Origin: a virus
Taxonomy: Duplodnaviria > Heunggongvirae > Uroviricota > Caudoviricetes
IMG/VR virus record: IMGVR_UViG_2778261570_000004
Span: 1 to 28,792 of that record
Reading direction: 5' to 3' (one strand)
DNA length: 28,792 bases
Position 1 is the stretch's first letter. Every line of letters starts with the position of its first letter. The notes beneath the pieces were generated by a model. The model saw nothing but the letters and a program-made list of their open reading frames with translations, had not been told where the DNA came from and searched no databases. Shown one piece after another: positions 158 through 27,378 of the stretch. The translations under genes were made by a program, and so were the position numbers.

Positions 158-358
158 TTGCGTTTACTTAACGTGGCTGAACTTATCCCTGCTGGTGCTA
201 ACGTTGTTGCTCGCCGTCGTTCCTGGCAGCAACCATTGTGTGTTGAGTTGTTGAAACACAGCAATGGAACAATAGAGGCTCGGAATATTGTCACTGGTGA
301 TAAGGTTCACATTACCCCGGAAAGTACAGGCGCTGATGATTGGGAGTTTGTACATTGA
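158..358 (+). CDS. hypothetical small protein (66 aa, TTG start)
   Basis: ORF from track; GGAGA about 8 nt upstream of TTG; no recognisable motif; overlaps next ORF. Confidence 0.3.
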   Translation: MRLLNVAELIPAGANVVARRRSWQQPLCVELLKHSNGTIEARNIVTGDKVHITPESTGADDWEFVH

Positions 359-654
359 GCAAAAAATATCATGTGAACCTGGCGTTTGCCGATGACGCCG
401 GGAGGACGCGGAGCATTACGCTCAACACCGCCCGCAAGGTGGTAACAGCGCCTTTAATCCGGGAAGCCCTCAGGGAGCTGGAAATGGGGGAGAACTCGAC
501 CCTTTTGTCGGTTAGTTGGTTAGGGAAAATGTCAGAGAAGGAATACGTAGACGGAGTTACTCCAATGACAGCCATGAGGCTGCTTTCATTGCTGCAATGG
601 GCTATCGTACCGGTATGCATCGTGTATTTTATCTACCAGGCAATGACACAATAA
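355..654 (+). CDS. small protein with C-terminal hydrophobic anchor (about 99 aa; track ORF 340..654 in same frame)
   Basis: Preferred TTG at 355 preceded by GGGAG; C-terminal LLSLLQWAIVPVCIVYFIY segment; followed by intrinsic terminator. Confidence 0.4.
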   Translation: MSKKYHVNLAFADDAGRTRSITLNTARKVVTAPLIREALRELEMGENSTLLSVSWLGKMSEKEYVDGVTPMTAMRLLSLLQWAIVPVCIVYFIYQAMTQ

Positions 655-660
655 CCGCTC

Positions 661-690
661 AAAAACCCGCCGATTAGCGGGTTTTTTGTT
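661..690 (+). terminator. rho-independent terminator
   Basis: CCCGC-cgatta-GCGGG stem-loop followed by TTTTTT. Confidence 0.6.
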
Positions 691-726
691 TATCACATCT
701 TTCGATCTTGTTCTCATACTAATAAA

Positions 727-747
727 ATATGTTAGAAAACTAATTTT
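727..747. promoter_or_regulatory. operator-like motif copy 1 (ATATGTTAGAAAACTAATTTT) overlapping promoter-like AT-rich region
   Basis: Member of a motif family recurring at least 9 times in the window; sits about 20 bp upstream of the 757 ORF. Confidence 0.5.
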
Positions 748-756
748 GCAAAAACA

Positions 757-1977
757 ATGGGAACTGCAATGAGTCAACAAACTGATACTTCTAATCTGGA
801 AATCATCTCAGCCGCGATTGAAACGCTGCGGACACAGATCGCCCTTATTCAAAAGCGGAATCCGGGGGATGACCTGTCCAGACGGTTACATGAGAGCGTC
901 ATTGCCACGACTGATAACCTGGTCGCGGAGATCAACCAGCTACTTGAGGAAGGGACGGTTGATTACAACAAGCTGGTGGATCAGTTTGAGGAATATCAAC
1001 AAGCTGTTAATGATGGCTTGCTCCGTTTTTCACGAGTCACAGGCGTATCAGCGACAGTTGAAAGTCTTGGCGATGCTGTTAATCAATTTGCCGCGAGTAT
1101 GCGTAGTGAGATCGGCAATCTGGAAGCGCGTCTTGAACAGGCAAACACACTGCGCAAATCCGCAGAAGCCGATTTGAGTCGTTACAAAAAAGACTATCCA
1201 GCCAGCCTGTCAAAACGACTGGATGTTGCGGAGAAGGATAACCGTGCGCTGAAAAGAGAGCGTCGGGAACTAAAAGAGCGTTTAACAGAGCTGAATCAGC
1301 AGTGCATTAAGTATCAAGGCGAAGGTGTCACACTGCGTAAAAAGTTAGCAGCAGCGCAGAACATTATTGAAACGCTGAAACGAGAGTGTTCACAGCTTGG
1401 TCATGATCTGAACCGCGCTTGTGGTATGGGACAAAGGCCAGAGACATTCCCGCTCATGTATGACGGGGTGGATGCTATTGCCTATATCCATGAGTACCCG
1501 CATGGTCTGGTTGCGGAGACTGGTCAGCGTGGTGAAGCTCTGTTGACGGCTAATTACCATCAACAAATTAGAACCAACCGCCTGCTGACGATGGATGTGA
1601 TCCCATCAGTATGGGGAACGCCGCTTTACTATCGCCTGCCCGGCTTCGAAACGGACTGGAATACCGATATAGACGAATGCCTGGCAGATAAAATTATGGC
1701 GTACCTGGAGACTGATTTCCCGCGCCTGCATCGCCGGATTATGGACTCTAAGGATGCGCCGATCGATGAATTGAAAATGCGCCCAGAGACGTTGGAAGCT
1801 ATCAAACAGACTGCGTTTGATACCGTATTCAGCGTGGCCTGTATCCCAAGTAGTTTTCATGAAAGCATCCCCTTTATGCAGGGCGACCGTCGTCAAGAAA
1901 TTATTGATGCCTGCCGGGTGTGGGCTAACGAATGGGACAAGAAGAATGGGGGCGTAGAAGATCTTTATGGGAAATAA
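757..1977 (+). CDS. coiled-coil protein of unknown function (406 aa; start may be ATG at 769)
   Basis: Long ORF; N-terminal half heptad-rich with charged residues, C-terminal globular region; bracketed by operator-like motifs. Confidence 0.6.
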   Translation: MGTAMSQQTDTSNLEIISAAIETLRTQIALIQKRNPGDDLSRRLHESVIATTDNLVAEINQLLEEGTVDYNKLVDQFEEYQQAVNDGLLRFSRVTGVSATVESLGDAVNQFAASMRSEIGNLEARLEQANTLRKSAEADLSRYKKDYPASLSKRLDVAEKDNRALKRERRELKERLTELNQQCIKYQGEGVTLRKKLAAAQNIIETLKRECSQLGHDLNRACGMGQRPETFPLMYDGVDAIAYIHEYPHGLVAETGQRGEALLTANYHQQIRTNRLLTMDVIPSVWGTPLYYRLPGFETDWNTDIDECLADKIMAYLETDFPRLHRRIMDSKDAPIDELKMRPETLEAIKQTAFDTVFSVACIPSSFHESIPFMQGDRRQEIIDACRVWANEWDKKNGGVEDLYGK

Positions 1978-1996
1978 TATGTTAGAAATCTAATTT
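1977..1996. promoter_or_regulatory. operator-like motif copy 2 (ATATGTTAGAAATCTAATTT)
   Basis: Same motif family, immediately after the stop of the 757..1977 ORF. Confidence 0.45.
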
Positions 1997-2132
1997 CATT
2001 AAAAGAACATATTGATTGTGAGAGTAACTTAACTTAGAATTTTCCTTGCTGGTGGAGCGTTGCCACATTTCGCTTGCTGGGCTTGATAGTCACTTATTGG
2101 TTGTTGTTCGCCCACCAGCAAATAACAAATTA

Positions 2133-2150
2133 AAGTGTTAGAAAATTACA
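2133..2150. promoter_or_regulatory. operator-like motif copy 3 (AAGTGTTAGAAAATTACA)
   Basis: Same motif core GTTAGAAAA. Confidence 0.4.
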
Positions 2151-2634
2151 TGCATACAGGGACTCGCTTTGGCACCGAGCAAGCCAAAGTTCAGCAGGTT
2201 TAGTGCGTAAAGTGGTTTCAGAGAGAGCACTTTACGGAGTAAACAACAAGACATGTTGAGCCACGGAAGGTCTTTTTAAGATGTTCATTGATGATGGTCC
2301 GGCAGAGAGTAACGGGACTCGCCGCATCGAATCATCATCAATGCACATCCTCAACATTAAGGAGGCATAGGGATTTTTTTGTGGCGATTACCTTTTGCCC
2401 TAAGTCTCCTTAATGTTGCGGTAATGCACCTATGCGGATGCGGCCTTGCATTGTGTCTTGAAAGAATGGGGTAAGGCCGGGGATATCCCCAGGGGGAGGC
2501 ACCCCCGCTGCAACGAACAGCCACAGACGGCAGTCGAGTGATGGAAACGTGCAAAGACTTTAAACCTCGTTACGGCTGGCGTGGCAAACGCGACAACCGA
2601 GACAGAGCGGTGACGGGCGGAGAGAGTGCCGCAT

Positions 2635-2756
2635 CAAGAAAGAAGCCGACTTGTGATCCCTTTCTGCGGGCATTTGAAAGTGAATCCAGCTCAGGCAGTC
2701 GGCTTCTTTCTTGTGTGAGATGTAGCGTATTTGCCCATCTTCGGGTGGGCTTTTTT
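2635..2756 (+). ncRNA. candidate structured small RNA: 17-bp perfect inverted repeat hairpin followed by intrinsic terminator
   Basis: CAAGAAAGAAGCCGACT (2635-2651) pairs perfectly with AGTCGGCTTCTTTCTTG (2697-2713); GCCCA-loop-TGGGC plus T6 at 2733-2756; no credible CDS. Confidence 0.35.
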
Positions 2757-2930
2757 AGGGTTTTCGTCATGGTTAGCGACTTTGCGGCGGTTTAGAACCC
2801 GACCATTAAAGTAAATGCAAACGATGATCTGATGATGGTAGCGGCCTAAGAAGCCTGACGCCACGGGGTATGAGTCGTCCCCCGTCAAAAAATCGACCGC
2901 AGAGTGTCCCCGTCTGTGTATTAGGGAACG

Positions 2931-3026
2931 GGGAGGCATAACAGGCAAGGGCGCTGGTGTGATTAACCAGATGAATGAGAAGGGTCAGGTCTTTCTGGTC
3001 AGCGCCCTTACCTGTTACGTCCCTCC
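2931..3026. repeat. long imperfect hairpin, module copy 1 (ACAGGCAAGGGCGCTG / CAGCGCCCTTACCTGTT)
   Basis: About 26-bp stem with one G-U position; shares ACAGG-AAGGG / CCCTTACC-GTTG arms with copies at 3373, 3583 and 4993. Confidence 0.45.
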
Positions 3027-3216
3027 CGCGTAACAGCCATTGATTAATGGCTTTCTGGGATAACATCCTACTACGGGTATATCCCGTCATGCTGAAGGCG
3101 CTAATCACGCTGGAAGCCAGGGTTGTGCATCCCCTGTTACCGAATTGCAGCCAGGGCGCGGTGCGCCGAAAAGCATACGGAGGTGGAAGCCCTCGCCGGA
3201 GACGTACCCGGCAAGT

Positions 3217-3292
3217 GATGGTGTAGCTCAGCGGTTAGAGCGGTTGACTGTTAATCAACGGGTCGATGGTTCAAATCCATCCACCATCGCCA
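3217..3292 (+). tRNA. tRNA-Asn (anticodon GTT)
   Basis: Manual cloverleaf: acceptor GATGGTG/CACCATC, D-arm GCTC..GAGC, anticodon loop CTGTTAA, T-arm GATGG-TTCAAAT-CCATC, encoded CCA. Confidence 0.85.
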
Positions 3293-3294
3293 AT

Positions 3295-3370
3295 GCCGGT
3301 TTAGCTCAGTTGGTAGAGCGCCTGCCTTGTAAGCAGGATGTCAGCGGTTCGAGTCCGTTAATCGGCACCA
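3295..3370 (+). tRNA. tRNA-Thr (anticodon TGT)
   Basis: Manual cloverleaf: acceptor GCCGGTT/AATCGGC (one G-U), anticodon stem CCTGC/GCAGG with loop CTTGTAA, T-loop TTCGAGT, encoded CCA. Confidence 0.85.
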
Positions 3371-3372
3371 GC

Positions 3373-3460
3373 ACAACAGGTAAGGGTATTTTGCGACGTC
3401 GGAGATCGCCGAGCTTGGCAGAGGGTTCGAATCCCTACGAAGTACCCTTACCGTTGTGAT
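3373..3460. repeat. hairpin module copy 2, containing a T-arm-like GGTTCGAATCC (tRNA-like remnant)
   Basis: Arms ACAACAGGTAAGGG / CCCTTACCGTTGTG; internal AGGGTTCGAATCCCT; does not fold as a canonical 76-nt tRNA. Confidence 0.4.
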
Positions 3461-3582
3461 GAATGCGCAGGCTGATGCGCGAAAGACATTGCAGCTATTG
3501 CGGAAAAGAGCTGTTCGGCGGGGCAATTAAACGCCCGTGAGAGTCTGAAATAACCGCAAGCCGGAGATCAGCACCGGTCATC

Positions 3583-3657
3583 ACAACACAACAGGTAAGG
3601 GCATTCTCCCTTATGGGGCTTGGCTTAAATGCATCGAGTGCTCTTACCGTTGTGATG
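3583..3657. repeat. hairpin module copy 3
   Basis: CATCACAACACAACAGGTAAGGG ... CTCTTACCGTTGTGATG. Confidence 0.4.
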
Positions 3658-4018
3658 AAGTGCAGCTCTTTGAAGCAACCAGAAGATAAGCATCTGGCTT
3701 CACAACATAAACCGCAGGAACGACCAATAAACGGTAGTCCGTATGGAGAACACCCCGTTGAGGAAGAGGCCTGGCCGGAACCGTAACCGGCACTATAACG
3801 TTGAGAACACTGGCGTAACGGGTTCATATCCCAATCTACAGGTCCACCAGGAATGCTCTTTCCGTTGCGGTGAATGCGGCTAAGCGCACGCGGAACAGTT
3901 AAAACAATCCTCCTTAATGGTTAAACATTCCGACGTTAATTGTTAACTGGTTAACGTCACCGGGAGGCACTCGGCACCGCAATCTAATAAATATGTCACT
4001 TTTATTGAGGGATAACCA

Positions 4019-5262: not shown

Positions 5263-5838
5263 ATGTTAACGGCGAACGATAACGCGTATGCAGAAGCAGA
5301 TCTCATATTCAGTGACTTCATCGGTCAGCGGGAACGCTGGACACAAAAGCGAGAGGAACTTTATGCCTCGTTAGTTCGCAAAGGTGTCAACATTGAAACC
5401 GCTCAAAGCGGCGATATGACGGTAGTCAGTGTTGGATTACATGGTGTGAGCGTGTCCGCAGCCAATCATGAGCCATACGTAGCGTTATCCGAGTCGATGG
5501 CAAGGCTAATTAAGTTTCTGAAGCAAACAGAAGCCAATAATGTTTTCATCGCCAAAAAGAACATCAATTTTTCTGCCGCCATGTTCTGGATGATGAAGGG
5601 GCTGGATGCCCGCCGGGCATCATGGCCTAAAGGGAGCTATTTATCGATGTTCCGTGGCAGCATTGGCAGCAAAGAAAAGCTCTTCGAATTCTTGCCGGAA
5701 GAGGCATTCGATATTGTGGAAGGGTGCGATGTGATGGTTATGCCTCGCCTGGTAATGATGAATGGGGATTTACAGGCGCAGACAGACTGGTTCGCAACTG
5801 GCGTGGATATTATCGCAACTGACTGGGAGGCATTCTGA
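5263..5838 (+). CDS. hypothetical protein with C-terminal DUF2829-like domain (191 aa)
   Basis: SD AAGGAG; C-terminal AAMFWMMKGLDARRASWPKGSYL...QTDWFATGVDIIATDWEAF resembles the DUF2829 pattern. Confidence 0.6.
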   Translation: MLTANDNAYAEADLIFSDFIGQRERWTQKREELYASLVRKGVNIETAQSGDMTVVSVGLHGVSVSAANHEPYVALSESMARLIKFLKQTEANNVFIAKKNINFSAAMFWMMKGLDARRASWPKGSYLSMFRGSIGSKEKLFEFLPEEAFDIVEGCDVMVMPRLVMMNGDLQAQTDWFATGVDIIATDWEAF

Positions 5839-11094: not shown

Positions 11095-12123
11095 ATGAGT
11101 GAATTAATTATCTCTGGCAGCTCCGGTGGTTTTCTGCGCAACATTGGCAAAGAGTACCAGGAGGCCGCAGAAAACTTTATGCGGTTCATGAATGACCAGG
11201 GGGCTTACGCGCCGAATACTTTGCGCGATCTCCGGTTAGTGTTTCACTCCTGGGCGAGATGGTGTCACGCTCGCCAGCTCGCCTGGTTCCCGATCTCACC
11301 AGAGATGGCCCGCGAGTATTTTCTTCAGCTGCATGATGCTGATCTGGCTTCGACCACCATTGATAAGCACTACGCCATGCTTAACATGCTGCTTTCGCAT
11401 TGTGGCCTTCCGCCACTTTCGGATGATAAAAGTGTTTCTCTGGCTATGCGGCGCATCCGGCGTGAAGCGGCAACTGAAAAAGGCGAACGAACAGGCCAGG
11501 CTATACCGCTGCGGTGGGACGATCTGAAACTGCTCGACGTCCTGTTGTCCAGGTCAGAACGGCTGGTGGACCTGCGCAACCGGGCTTTTCTCTTTGTTGC
11601 ATACAATACGCTGATGCGTATGTCGGAAATCTCGCGTATTCGTGTAGGAGATCTGGATCAAACAGGTGACACTGTCACGCTACATATTTCACACACGAAG
11701 ACAATAACGACCGCCGCCGGGATTGATAAGGTGCTTTCCCGTCGCACTACCGCTGTGCTGAATGACTGGCTGGATGTTTCCGGGCTTCGCGAACATCCTG
11801 ACGCAGTGTTGTTCCCGCCGATACACCGTAGCAATAAGGCCAGGATCACGACAACGCCCCTTACTGCACCTGCAATGGAGAAAATATTCAGCGACGCCTG
11901 GGTGTTGCTGAATAAAAGAGATGCTACGCCAAACAAAGGAAGATACCGGACGTGGACCGGGCATAGTGCACGCGTCGGGGCCGCTATTGATATGGCTGAA
12001 AAGCAGGTGTCTATGGTGGAGATCATGCAGGAAGGAACCTGGAAGAAACCGGAAACACTTATGCGGTATCTTCGCCGTGGCGGCGTGTCTGTGGGGGCTA
12101 ATAGCCGCCTGATGGATTCGTAA
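11095..12123 (+). CDS. dre: Cre-family tyrosine recombinase, Dre-like
   Basis: Alignable by eye to P1 Cre (HSWARWC, SVSLAMRRIRRE, RNRAFLFVAYNTLMRMSEISRIRVGDL, WTGHSARVGAAIDMA, LMRYL catalytic Tyr); adjacent rox-like site. Confidence 0.85.
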   Translation: MSELIISGSSGGFLRNIGKEYQEAAENFMRFMNDQGAYAPNTLRDLRLVFHSWARWCHARQLAWFPISPEMAREYFLQLHDADLASTTIDKHYAMLNMLLSHCGLPPLSDDKSVSLAMRRIRREAATEKGERTGQAIPLRWDDLKLLDVLLSRSERLVDLRNRAFLFVAYNTLMRMSEISRIRVGDLDQTGDTVTLHISHTKTITTAAGIDKVLSRRTTAVLNDWLDVSGLREHPDAVLFPPIHRSNKARITTTPLTAPAMEKIFSDAWVLLNKRDATPNKGRYRTWTGHSARVGAAIDMAEKQVSMVEIMQEGTWKKPETLMRYLRRGGVSVGANSRLMDS

Positions 12124-22146: not shown

Positions 22147-22187
22147 ATATGTTAGAAAACTAAAATCAATGTTCTAACGTAATTTTG
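22147..22187. promoter_or_regulatory. operator-like motif pair (ATATGTTAGAAAACTAAAAT plus ATGTTCTAACGTAATTTTG)
   Basis: Two motif copies, GTTAGAA and inverted TTCTAAC, in the intergenic gap inside the leftward operon. Confidence 0.45.
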
Positions 22188-26682: not shown

Positions 26683-26720
26683 GTCCTCCAAACATTTATC
26701 AGTGATGATATTAATGTTTT

Positions 26721-26757
26721 GTGTTAGAAAATCAATTTTGAATATCTAACTATTTTG
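26721..26757. promoter_or_regulatory. operator-like motif pair in divergent promoter region
   Basis: GTGTTAGAAAATCAATTTT plus inverted ATCTAAC; between the leftward operon and the Ref-like gene. Confidence 0.45.
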
Positions 26758-26799
26758 ATCAATCATAGAAAAATCGTTGAAAAGTAAGAGACTGCCATC

Positions 26800-27378
26800 A
26801 TGCAGAAACAGAGTTATTGGGAGAAACAGAGACAAAAAGCCATGCAAAAATTGGCTGACCCGGCCTGGCGAGAGGAACAAAGGGCAAAGCGCCTTCAACA
26901 AGCTCAACGCCAGCAGCAGCGAGCGAGAGAAAAGGCCGCATCGCCTGAATATCGGCAAAAGAAAAATGAAAAAGCAAAGCAATATGAACAGCGGAGAAAA
27001 GATAAAGCTGTATCCGCTCCGCCCAAAAAAACACGCACGTCACGCGGCCTGAAAGGCAGATCACTCACAGCCGATGAACGCCGGATACAGACCGCTATCG
27101 GTACTCTCCCCTGCATTGCCTGCCATATTCACGGGCAACATAGCCCAGTGGTATCCCTGCACCATATCTTCGGGAGAACGGCAGAGAACGCGCATAAATA
27201 TGTCCTCCCTTTGTGTAAATGGCACCACCAGTACGCAGCGCCAGCCGAGGTCCGAGAACAATATCCCTGGCTGGTCCCTGTTCATGCTGACGGAAAAATA
27301 GGCGGAAAAGCAGATTTCATGCGGCACAATGCCGATGAAATGACGTTGTATCAGATGGCGATTGAATTGATAAATTAG
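26800..27378 (+). CDS. ref: Ref-like protein (basic disordered N-terminus plus Cys/His-rich HNH-like C-terminal domain)
   Basis: N-terminal 85 aa rich in K/R/Q; C-terminal CIACHIHGQH...HHIFGR...CKWHHQ; operator-like motifs on both sides. Confidence 0.5.
   Translation: MQKQSYWEKQRQKAMQKLADPAWREEQRAKRLQQAQRQQQRAREKAASPEYRQKKNEKAKQYEQRRKDKAVSAPPKKTRTSRGLKGRSLTADERRIQTAIGTLPCIACHIHGQHSPVVSLHHIFGRTAENAHKYVLPLCKWHHQYAAPAEVREQYPWLVPVHADGKIGGKADFMRHNADEMTLYQMAIELIN

What the first reader, a model, noticed from the sequence alone, without database searches (positions are those of the whole stretch)
727..1996. Coiled-coil 406-aa gene bracketed on both sides by operator copies, cassette-like
A single gene with an intrinsic terminator upstream and operator-like motifs at both its promoter and immediately after its stop. 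Single repressor-controlled genes in P1-type elements are often cargo such as exclusion, anti-restriction or kil functions. The protein has a long N-terminal coiled coil and an unassigned C-terminal domain.
Basis: inference. Interest (0 to 1): 0.45.

Follow-up and report, generated by a model that had tools for sequence, protein, structure and literature searches.

The report
Repressor-controlled PmgS gene of D6-like phage-plasmid
The flagged gene is the D6-lineage copy of PmgS, a conserved P1-family backbone gene of unknown function that is kept off by the prophage repressor; it is not a mobile cargo cassette, and its only new feature is a C-terminal domain that resembles the DNA/protein-binding tail of the RNA polymerase alpha subunit and the N-terminal domain of RAD51.

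Summary
The sequence features are real. A strong intrinsic terminator (661-690) precedes the ORF. The ORF is 757-1977, but the true start is most likely ATG 769, giving 402 aa. An 18-bp motif, ATGTTAGAAAACTAATTT, lies at the promoter (729-746) and right after the stop (1979-1996), with a third copy at 2135-2152.

The motif has 10-11 copies in the window against about 1 expected. All are intergenic, and they sit where P1 has C1 operators (c1, lpa, ref, cre/lox). I read it as the operator of the D6-type C1 repressor.

The cassette/cargo interpretation is not supported:
- The window is a D6-like P1-family phage-plasmid, and the gene is D6 orf9 (93.6% aa identity), a full-length distant ortholog of P1 PmgS.
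- Its position is fixed (darB…pmgM-pmgR-pmgS…lpa-pacAB-c1) in relatives down to about 20% identity.
- The operator after the stop belongs to the next transcription unit. The ref gene is flanked the same way.

The protein has an N-terminal helical rod, a family-specific β-rich domain and a C-terminal (HhH)2 domain like RNAP αCTD and RAD51-NTD. P1 ΔpmgS plaques normally, which argues against the "prohead scaffolding" label in the D6 record.

The likeliest reading is a repressor-controlled, early, non-essential accessory protein that binds DNA or protein. Interest is low.

The parts
340..654 (+). Upstream PmgR-like gene (104 aa), the last gene of the preceding operon
   Evidence: 31% identity to P1 PmgR over 64 aa. 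PHROG 9115/3177. D6 orf10 is annotated 'similar to P1 pmgR'.
661..690 (+). Intrinsic terminator that ends the pmgM-orf11-pmgR operon
   Evidence: 10-bp stem, 5 GC pairs, then a T-run. Equivalent hairpin plus T-run in D6, L005, L007 and L009.
700..728 (+). Inferred sigma-70 promoter of pmgS: weak -35 TTTCGA (700-705), 17-nt spacer, -10 TAAAAT (723-728)
   Evidence: Inferred by alignment with relatives, which have TTTACA-16-TATAAT (L005), TTTACT-16-TATAAT (L007) and TACAAT (L009) at the same position. The consensus scan did not detect it.
729..746 (+). Operator O1 (ATGTTAGAAAACTAATTT), abutting the -10 and covering the expected transcription start
   Evidence: An identical copy is in D6. In L005 and L007 an inverted second half-site overlaps the -10, so the operator there is bivalent.
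769..1977 (+). pmgS-like CDS, 402 aa from ATG 769 (the longest ORF starts at 757); stop TAA at 1975-1977
787..1419 (+). N-terminal alpha-helical rod (about aa 7-217), probably a coiled coil
   Evidence: AF2 helices H11-32, H39-95, H101-145 and H151-221 in 406-aa numbering, pLDDT 60-84. Sub-threshold coiled-coil family hits.
1444..1629 (+). Family-specific beta-rich middle domain containing the conserved HxQIRT...WGxPxY motifs
   Evidence: AF2 model of the C-terminal half: pLDDT 92.3, pTM 0.87, strands E14-19, E22-31, E52-57 and E62-68. No PDB sequence or fold match of note.
1762..1947 (+). C-terminal (HhH)2 domain, like RNAP alpha-CTD and RAD51-NTD
1979..1996 (+). Operator O2 (ATGTTAGAAATCTAATTT), starting 2 bp after the stop codon
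   Evidence: Positionally conserved in D6, L005, L007 and L009.
2012..2040 (+). Downstream promoter P2 (TTGATT-17-TAGAAT), which belongs to the next transcription unit
   Evidence: Conserved as TTGATT...TACAAT in L005, L007 and L009.
2135..2152 (+). Operator O3, about 95 bp downstream of the P2 -10 and 156 bp from O2
   Evidence: Conserved together with its flank ACAAATTAAA in all relatives.

Best explanation
The gene is the D6-lineage ortholog of P1 pmgS. It is a backbone gene of P1-family phage-plasmids, transcribed as its own unit from a sigma-70 promoter.

Regulation. The start region of that promoter is covered by an 18-bp asymmetric operator for the D6-type C1 repressor. In the lysogen, C1 on O1 keeps the gene off. 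When C1 is inactivated, host RNA polymerase makes the mRNA early in lytic growth; the timing is inferred. The second operator, just after the stop, together with a third 156 bp further on, flanks a separate conserved promoter. That promoter drives the downstream non-coding RNA/tRNA region, so the 'bracketing' is simply two adjacent repressor-controlled units.

Protein. It is a 45.7-kDa acidic protein with a long helical rod (probably an oligomerising coiled coil), a family-specific beta-rich domain and a C-terminal (HhH)2 domain of the RNAP alpha-CTD / RAD51-NTD type.

Function. It most likely acts as a non-essential, oligomeric DNA- or protein-binding accessory factor in early lytic DNA transactions. 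It is probably not a capsid scaffold and not an exclusion or kil cargo gene.

Basis. Shown here: orthology, synteny, the motif statistics and positions, and the fold. Inferred: that C1 binds the motif, the timing of expression, and the biochemical role.
For: Identity:
- 86.8% nt and 93.6% aa identity to D6 orf9.
- PHROG 1660, E=3e-140.
- Colinear alignment with P1 PmgS, E=8e-14 for the pairwise comparison.
- The family is small: 89 representatives among 1.84 billion proteins, most of them 320-480 aa and matching over much of the profile.

Synteny:
- The order darB-...-pmgM-orf11-pmgR-pmgS-...-lpa-pacA-pacB-c1 is kept in relatives at 45-55% identity and beyond.
- pmgR and pmgS are extremely conserved in P1-like phage-plasmids.

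Operator:
- 10 copies against 1.08 expected, all intergenic.
- Copies lie 15 bp upstream of the C1 homolog, 79 bp upstream of lpa, in the ref divergent region as an inverted overlapping pair, and next to cre. These are the places where the P1 record annotates Oc1, Olpa and (outside the stretch fetched, from memory) Oref.
- P1's own pmgR-pmgS operon is annotated as C1-controlled through Op86a/b.
- The motif is absent from P1 and from relatives of other immunity types.
- It differs from the P1 late-promoter -22 boxes.
- It occurs in either orientation relative to the downstream genes.

Protein.

Context outside P1: in Vibrio phages and metagenomic contigs the gene lies among early and DNA-metabolism genes (DNA methyltransferases, Ant, a DnaC-like loader, Ref), not in head modules.

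Dispensability: P1 pmgS is non-essential by CRISPRi (PMC10695390) and by in-frame deletion (PMC9024508).
Against: - No experiment shows that D6-type C1 binds this motif. I could not read the D6 genome paper.
- The -35 of the pmgS promoter is poor, and the consensus scan missed the promoter.
- In the D6/P1 clade the (HhH)2 domain is acidic (net -3 to -7) and its GhG hairpins are degenerate (PFMQGD). Distant members have canonical KGhG and a basic domain. The residue aligned with alpha-CTD R265 is Glu. DNA binding by this particular protein is therefore uncertain, and the domain may bind protein instead.
- There is no terminator directly after the stop, so the pmgS mRNA may read through into the downstream unit.
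- The heptad analysis was not significant.
Confidence: 0.7

Rival explanations
1. Prohead scaffolding protein, as annotated in the D6 GenBank record. On this view the helical rod would fill procapsids and leave on maturation.
For: The D6 record calls orf9 'putative prohead scaffolding protein'. PHROG 1660 carries the label 'head morphogenesis'. A long helical, acidic protein of about 45 kDa fits the general look of scaffolds.
Against: - P1 ΔpmgS has no plaquing defect.
- PmgS is not mentioned in the main text, including the virion-protein table, of the P1 virion proteome paper, nor in the main text of the cryo-EM virion study.
- Both P1 papers assign scaffolding to the cleaved N-terminal ~120 residues of the major capsid protein.
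- The gene is driven by a repressor-operated sigma-70 promoter. No Lpa-type -22 box lies upstream.
- The C-terminus is an (HhH)2 domain, which is unknown in scaffolds.
- In Vibrio phages the gene lies in early and DNA-metabolism regions.
Confidence: 0.08
2. Accessory cargo: a repressor-controlled exclusion, anti-restriction, anti-defence or kil function carried as a cassette.
For: It is a single gene with its own operator-controlled promoter. It is non-essential in P1. It lies downstream of the darB/ulx anti-restriction genes and, across lineages, often near DNA methyltransferases. A Tad2-like anti-Thoeris gene is a few kb away.
Against: - Its position is fixed and its sequence is conserved over the whole P1/D6 supergroup, rather than showing a patchy, cassette-like distribution.
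- P1 ΔpmgS showed no change in antirestriction.
- The only PADLOC matches are far-sub-threshold coiled-coil arm hits (JetC, LmuB, E >= 1e-4), so no defence family is recognised.
- No repeats, recombination sites or composition break flank the gene. O2 belongs to the next promoter.
Confidence: 0.12
3. The repeated motif is not the C1 operator. It would instead be a late-promoter (Lpa) box or the site of some other factor, which would make pmgS a late gene.
For: No binding data exist. P1-family late promoters also carry a conserved element near -22 next to a -10.
Against: - The motif does not resemble the P1 -22 boxes (AAGTTACTT and similar), although Lpa itself is well conserved (Pfam BPP1_LPA, E=6e-55).
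- It lies in front of lpa itself and of c1, and forms overlapping inverted pairs at ref, as P1 bivalent C1 operators do.
- It occurs in both orientations relative to downstream genes.
- It follows the -10 rather than sitting at -22.
- It co-varies with the divergent C1 lineage.
Confidence: 0.05

Closest known systems
Escherichia phage D6 orf9 (ASR76320.1), in D6-like phage-plasmids of E. coli, Shigella and Salmonella
   Same: 93.6% aa identity. Same neighbours, the same upstream terminator and the same three operator copies. 110 PLSDB plasmids carry the locus, 18 of them at >=99% identity.
   Different: Only allelic differences. The D6 record starts the CDS at a GTG equivalent to window 757 and calls it a scaffolding protein. 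PGAP calls it a hypothetical protein starting at MSQ.
Bacteriophage P1 PmgS (YP_006559.1) in the C1-controlled pmgR-pmgS operon (Op86a/b)
   Same: Full-length colinear homology and the same three-part architecture, adjacent to pmgR. It is under C1-type operator control and is followed by a GCTGGTGG...CCACCAGC hairpin.
   Different: Only 20% identity. In P1 pmgS is co-transcribed with pmgR from one operator-controlled promoter and ends at a terminator. Here a terminator and a separate operator/promoter lie between pmgR and pmgS, and there is no terminator right after the stop. The operator sequence differs too (P1 ATTGCTCTAATAAATTT against ATGTTAGAAAACTAATTT).
(HhH)2 domains: RNA polymerase alpha C-terminal domain, RAD51/RadA N-terminal domain, Brr2/Hel308 Sec63 HhH, NusA AR
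   Same: The last ~65 residues share the fold and the sequence profile.
   Different: Here the domain is fused to a coiled-coil rod and a novel beta domain. In this clade the glycine hairpins are degenerate and the domain is acidic, and the residue equivalent to alpha-CTD R265 is not conserved.
P1 ref: a single C1-controlled gene with a bivalent operator
   Same: In this window ref (26800-27378) is also a one-gene unit, with operator copies at its promoter and overlapping its stop. This shows that the pmgS layout is the standard way this genome packs repressor-controlled units.
   Different: The proteins are unrelated: Ref is a RecA-dependent nuclease.

Membership tests
PmgS family (PHROG 1660) | Full-length sequence match to the family profile | tested here: met
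   E=3.4e-140 over residues 5-405 against profile positions 1-404 of 405. Pairwise alignment with P1 PmgS is colinear over about 415 aa, E=8e-14.
PmgS family (PHROG 1660) | Conserved position next to pmgR in a P1-type phage-plasmid backbone | tested here: met
   The PmgR-like gene lies at 340-654. The synteny holds in D6 and P1 and, with the adjacent small gene unannotated, in relatives L005, L007, L009, L012, L013, L015 and L016.
PmgS family (PHROG 1660) | A role in head morphogenesis, as the family name implies | not testable with these tools
   The published P1 data argue against an essential role. ΔpmgS plaques normally, and the protein is not mentioned in the main text of the virion proteome paper or of the cryo-EM paper.
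C1-repressor operator regulon of P1-type phages | Multiple dispersed copies of an asymmetric ~17-bp site, some as overlapping inverted (bivalent) pairs | tested here: met
   11 PWM sites against about 1 expected. Inverted overlapping pairs lie at 22148/22164 and at 26714/26728.
C1-repressor operator regulon of P1-type phages | Sites located at the promoters of c1, lpa, ref and other early genes | tested here: met
   Sites lie upstream of the C1 homolog (10722), of lpa (6245) and of ref (26720), and after cre (12123). The P1 equivalents are annotated.
C1-repressor operator regulon of P1-type phages | Physical binding by C1 and repression in the lysogen | not testable with these tools
   This needs a footprint or EMSA, or a reporter assay.
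Phage prohead scaffolding proteins | Required for procapsid assembly, present in proheads, encoded in the late or head module | tested here: not met
   Only the genomic and regulatory part was tested here. The gene is not in a head module, it has a repressor-operated promoter, and no Lpa-type box is present. The requirement is contradicted in P1 by published knockouts.
(HhH)2 / RuvA-domain-2-like fold (RNAP alpha-CTD, RAD51 NTD) | Two helix-hairpin-helix motifs forming a five-helix domain | tested here: met
(HhH)2 / RuvA-domain-2-like fold (RNAP alpha-CTD, RAD51 NTD) | Conserved GhG hairpins and basic DNA-contact residues | tested here: inconclusive
   These are canonical (KGhG, basic domain) in distant family members. 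They are degenerate and acidic in the D6 and P1 clade.
Known anti-phage defence or anti-defence families (PADLOC) | A significant match to a defence-system protein model | tested here: not met
   Only far-sub-threshold coiled-coil arm matches to JetC and LmuB, with E>=1e-4.

The most novel reading that the evidence does not exclude
PmgS-family proteins could be dimeric decoys or analogues of the RNA polymerase alpha subunit: a dimerising rod carrying two alpha-CTD-like (HhH)2 domains. Made as soon as the repressor is lifted, such a protein would capture UP-element DNA or alpha-CTD-binding activators, or tether phage DNA, and so redirect host transcription or recombination. That would explain why a gene dispensable in the laboratory is among the most conserved in P1-type phage-plasmids. 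A related possibility is that O2-P2-O3 controls a previously undescribed, highly structured ~700-nt RNA placed ahead of the phage tRNA genes.
Probability: 0.1. Interest if true: 0.6.

Novelty: new member of a known kind. Interest (0 to 1): 0.25.

Why it matters
This matters mainly for annotation. A widely copied label ('PmgS-like head morphogenesis', 'putative prohead scaffolding protein') is poorly founded. The comparative evidence points instead to a repressor-controlled early protein with an (HhH)2 alpha-CTD/RAD51-NTD-like domain.

The analysis also yields a working consensus for the operator of the D6-type C1 repressor, ATGTTAGAAAACTAATTT. With it, the immunity regulon of the D6-like phage-plasmids common in E. 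coli, Shigella and Salmonella can be mapped.

It does not reveal a new kind of system.

Tried and rejected
- Late-promoter reading of the motif. Rejected after extracting the P1 -22 boxes and C1 operators from the annotated P1 record and mapping every copy to its neighbouring genes.
- Direct sequence searches with the whole protein. Pfam, NCBIfam, PADLOC and PDB gave only generic coiled-coil noise. The word-indexed homolog search found only 12 close relatives, and tblastn against phages missed P1 altogether. The exhaustive profile search was what exposed the family and, through it, the HhH signal.
- Full-length AF2 with 11 sequences. The model was poor (pLDDT 63, pTM 0.31) and I did not use it for fold search. 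The C-terminal half with 46 sequences gave pLDDT 92.
- Fold searches. Foldseek against PDB and BFVD gave no hit with E<=0.001, though the highest-probability hits in the PDB search were again alpha-CTD and RAD51. The afdb50 library was unavailable.
- Heptad periodicity script. Not significant against shuffles, so I do not claim a canonical coiled coil.
- Literature. The D6 genome paper and the P1 genome paper could not be opened, so I do not know whether the D6 operator consensus is already published. One literature search was wasted on the ambiguous term 'PMGs'.
- Rfam. Nothing credible in the non-coding stretch 2000-3200 at E<=1.
Full report
**What the window is.** Window 600-2200 is 86.8% identical to Escherichia phage D6. 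It is 99-99.8% identical to about 90-kb non-mobilizable plasmids of E. coli and Shigella. A local BLAST shows that most of the 28.8-kb window is collinear, in reverse orientation, with D6. The order is pmgM-orf11-pmgR-pmgS, tRNAs, tciA/B, lpa-pacA-pacB, c1, rox/cre, phd-doc, humD, ppp, ref, icd. The element is therefore a D6-like member of the P1 family of phage-plasmids.

**The observation.**
- The ORF 757-1977 exists.
- Ten aligned homologs start at a methionine equivalent to ATG 769. An SD-like GGGAA lies 6 nt upstream of 769 and is conserved in relatives. The product is therefore most likely 402 aa, not 406.
- The upstream intrinsic terminator (stem 661-686 plus a T-run) is clear. It is conserved after the pmgR-like gene in D6 and in three relatives of 46-55% protein identity.
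- The 'operator-like' motif is real. TGTTAGAAANYTAA has 10 matches in the window against 1.08 expected, and no shuffle out of 100 reached 10.
- The extended consensus is ATGTTAGAAAACTAATTT. A PWM finds 11 sites, all of them intergenic.
- Copies lie at 729-746 (the promoter), 1979-1996 (2 bp after the stop) and 2135-2152.

**What the motif is.** I compared it with the annotated P1 record.
- The P1 late-promoter -22 boxes (AAATGACTA, AAGTTACTT, ATGTGACTT) do not resemble it.
- P1 C1 operators (ATTGCTCTAATAAATTT) are also about 17 bp, asymmetric and AT-rich, but differ in sequence.
- The positions are what decide the question:
  - One copy lies 15 bp upstream of the 345-aa C1 homolog (20% identity to P1 C1, E=5e-8).
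  - One lies 79 bp upstream of lpa (Pfam BPP1_LPA, 6e-55).
  - An overlapping inverted pair lies in the ref divergent region (Pfam RecA_dep_nuc).
  - Another pair lies between ppp and the pdcB-like gene.
  - Single copies lie next to cre and next to rox.
- These match the P1 sites Oc1 and Olpa and, from memory, Oref. They include the 'bivalent' arrangement.
- P1's own pmgR-pmgS operon is annotated as controlled by C1 operators Op86a/b.
- The motif occurs in both orientations relative to downstream genes, so it is not a directional promoter element.
- It is conserved in position in D6, L005, L007 and L009. It is absent from P1 and from relatives with other C1 types.
- I conclude that it is the operator of the D6-type C1 repressor. 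This is an inference; no binding data were available to me.

**The promoter.**
- In the relatives the operator abuts, or overlaps as an inverted pair, a near-consensus sigma-70 promoter. L005 has TTTACA-16-TATAAT and L007 has TTTACT-16-TATAAT.
- The window has TAAAAT (723-728) at the same place, with a weak -35. The consensus scan did not report this promoter.
- O1 would cover the transcription start, which is the classical geometry for repression.

**Is the gene 'bracketed' like a cassette?** No.
- O2 is followed 19 bp later by a conserved promoter, TTGATT-17-TAGAAT (2012-2040). In three relatives it reads TTGATT...TACAAT.
- After that come a conserved long-range stem and then O3.
- In L005 a tRNA gene starts about 35 bp after O3. 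In the window about 1.1 kb of ORF-poor, strongly structured sequence precedes tRNA-Asn and tRNA-Thr.
- O2 and O3 therefore belong to the next repressor-controlled unit.
- The same layout recurs elsewhere. Operator copies lie 0-15 bp after the stops of orf5, cre and ref, and ref is flanked on both sides exactly as pmgS is.
- There are no flanking repeats or recombination sites.

**Is the gene cargo?** No.
- It is D6 orf9 (93.6% aa identity) and matches PHROG 1660 'PmgS-like' at 3e-140.
- It aligns end to end with P1 PmgS at 20% identity.
- An exhaustive profile search of 1.84 billion representatives finds only 89 relatives. Most are 320-480 aa and match over much of the profile.
- In contigs of 83-101 kb, at 19-55% identity, the gene keeps the same place. 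It lies downstream of darB, ulx and pmgM, directly after a small gene that D6 and P1 annotate as pmgR, and upstream of lpa-pacAB-c1.
- A survey of 77 P1-like phage-plasmids lists pmgR and pmgS among the 21 'extremely conserved' genes (PMC9603915).

**What the protein is.**
- Searches with the single sequence gave only coiled-coil noise.
- Scanning a 47-member family alignment against Pfam gives HHH_5 in 10 members and RNA_pol_A_CTD in 5.
- A profile of the last 85 residues hits the Brr2/Sec63 HhH region (1e-8), the RAD51 N-terminal domain (5e-7), RNAP alpha-CTD (5e-6), NusA and Topo V HhH repeats.
- hhalign to the human RAD51 NTD gives 96.5% probability.
- AlphaFold2 on residues 213-402 with 46 sequences gives pLDDT 92.3 and pTM 0.87. 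The model has a small beta-rich domain, two linker helices and a five-helix terminal domain.
- The beta domain has no convincing structural or sequence relative.
- The N-terminal ~215 residues are predicted as four long helices.

One caveat applies to the (HhH)2 domain. In the D6 and P1 clade its hairpins are degenerate (PFMQGD instead of KGhG) and the domain is acidic. Distant members are canonical and basic. DNA binding is therefore plausible for the family as a whole but uncertain for this protein.

**Function.**
- The 'head morphogenesis' and 'prohead scaffolding' labels rest on no experiment that I could find.
- P1 pmgS is non-essential by CRISPRi (PMC10695390).
- An in-frame ΔpmgS mutant was among the knockouts made in PMC9024508. 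Only five of the 29 (pmgA, pmgB, pmgC, pmgG, pmgR) had a defect, so ΔpmgS falls among the 24 with neither a plaquing defect nor altered antirestriction.
- PmgS is not mentioned in the main text of the P1 virion proteome paper, which includes its virion-protein table, or in the main text of the 2026 cryo-EM virion study. Both papers assign scaffolding to the cleaved N-terminus of the major capsid protein.
- Outside the P1 group the gene lies in early regions, beside DNA methyltransferases, Ant, a DnaC-like loader and Ref-like genes.
- Taken with the repressor-operated promoter, the most economical reading is an early, dispensable, oligomeric accessory factor that binds DNA or protein.
- The gene is highly conserved yet dispensable in the laboratory. 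This suggests a role that only shows under natural conditions.

**Verdict.**
- The 'cassette-like cargo' part is not supported.
- The gene is an ordinary backbone gene of a known phage-plasmid lineage.
- The modest new points are the (HhH)2 assignment, the case against the scaffolding label, and a working consensus for the D6-type C1 operator.

Noticed in passing
window 1997-3216: About 1.2 kb with no convincing ORF lies between the pmgS stop and tRNA-Asn/Thr. It begins with the conserved promoter P2 (2012-2040), flanked by operators O2 and O3, and contains a terminator-like hairpin at 2733-2750. As RNA, 2045-2760 folds far better than shuffles (z=-4.6, 0 of 20 shuffles as good). There is no Rfam match at E<=1. 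Conservation with relatives is mosaic: blocks 2410-2514, 2516-2649 and 2751-2932 appear in a different order in L005. It could be a repressor-controlled structured RNA or a tRNA-operon leader.
   Followed up: partly
window 2048-2055 and 2112-2119; P1 locus L002 about 11740-11775: A Chi sequence (GCTGGTGG) and its complement (CCACCAGC) form the arms of a long-range stem just downstream of pmgS. In P1 the same two octamers, 6 nt apart, form the hairpin of the pmgS terminator. L007 keeps a stem here but not the Chi sequence.
   Followed up: partly
window 5263-5838 (+): A 191-aa protein (D6 orf6, 'hypothetical') carries a Thoeris anti-defense Tad2-like domain (Pfam PF11195, 1.4e-9, above the gathering score). 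It lies two genes upstream of lpa and is conserved at that position in several relatives.
   Followed up: partly
window 3217-3370; D6 record MF356679 7700-7850: ARAGORN and Rfam place tRNA-Asn(GTT) and tRNA-Thr(TGT) on the same strand as pmgS. The D6 GenBank record annotates them, and tRNA-Ser, on the opposite strand, which looks like a strand error in that record.
   Followed up: partly
window 3369-3900: Short direct repeats (22-23 nt, 74-91% identical) recur at spacings of about 196-215 nt after the tRNA genes. A sub-threshold match to the sRNA family STnc100 lies at 3866-3981 (42 bits against a gathering score of 47). A ~30-nt element at 2410-2443 recurs at 3864-3893.
   Followed up: no
window 22148-22181 and 26714-26759: Two overlapping inverted operator pairs, 'bivalent' like P1 Op2a/b and Op99a/b. 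One lies between ppp and the pdcB-like HNH/DUF968 gene, the other in the ref divergent promoter region.
   Followed up: partly
locus L008 1-5308 (Logan ERR15987340 contig): In one relative, the darB-pmgM side upstream of orf11-pmgR-pmgS is replaced by a Tn3-family transposase, a resolvase and a SIR2_2 plus DUF87 gene pair, a likely defence cargo. This marks an insertion point just upstream of the conserved pmgR-pmgS block.
   Followed up: no
loci L010, L011, L017: Outside the P1 group, PmgS-like genes sit directly next to DNA methyltransferase genes: downstream in two Vibrio phages, and upstream, with a 62-aa gene in between, in a metagenomic contig. In P1-type genomes the methyltransferase-helicase DarB lies a few genes upstream. 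This may point to a functional link with DNA modification.
   Followed up: no
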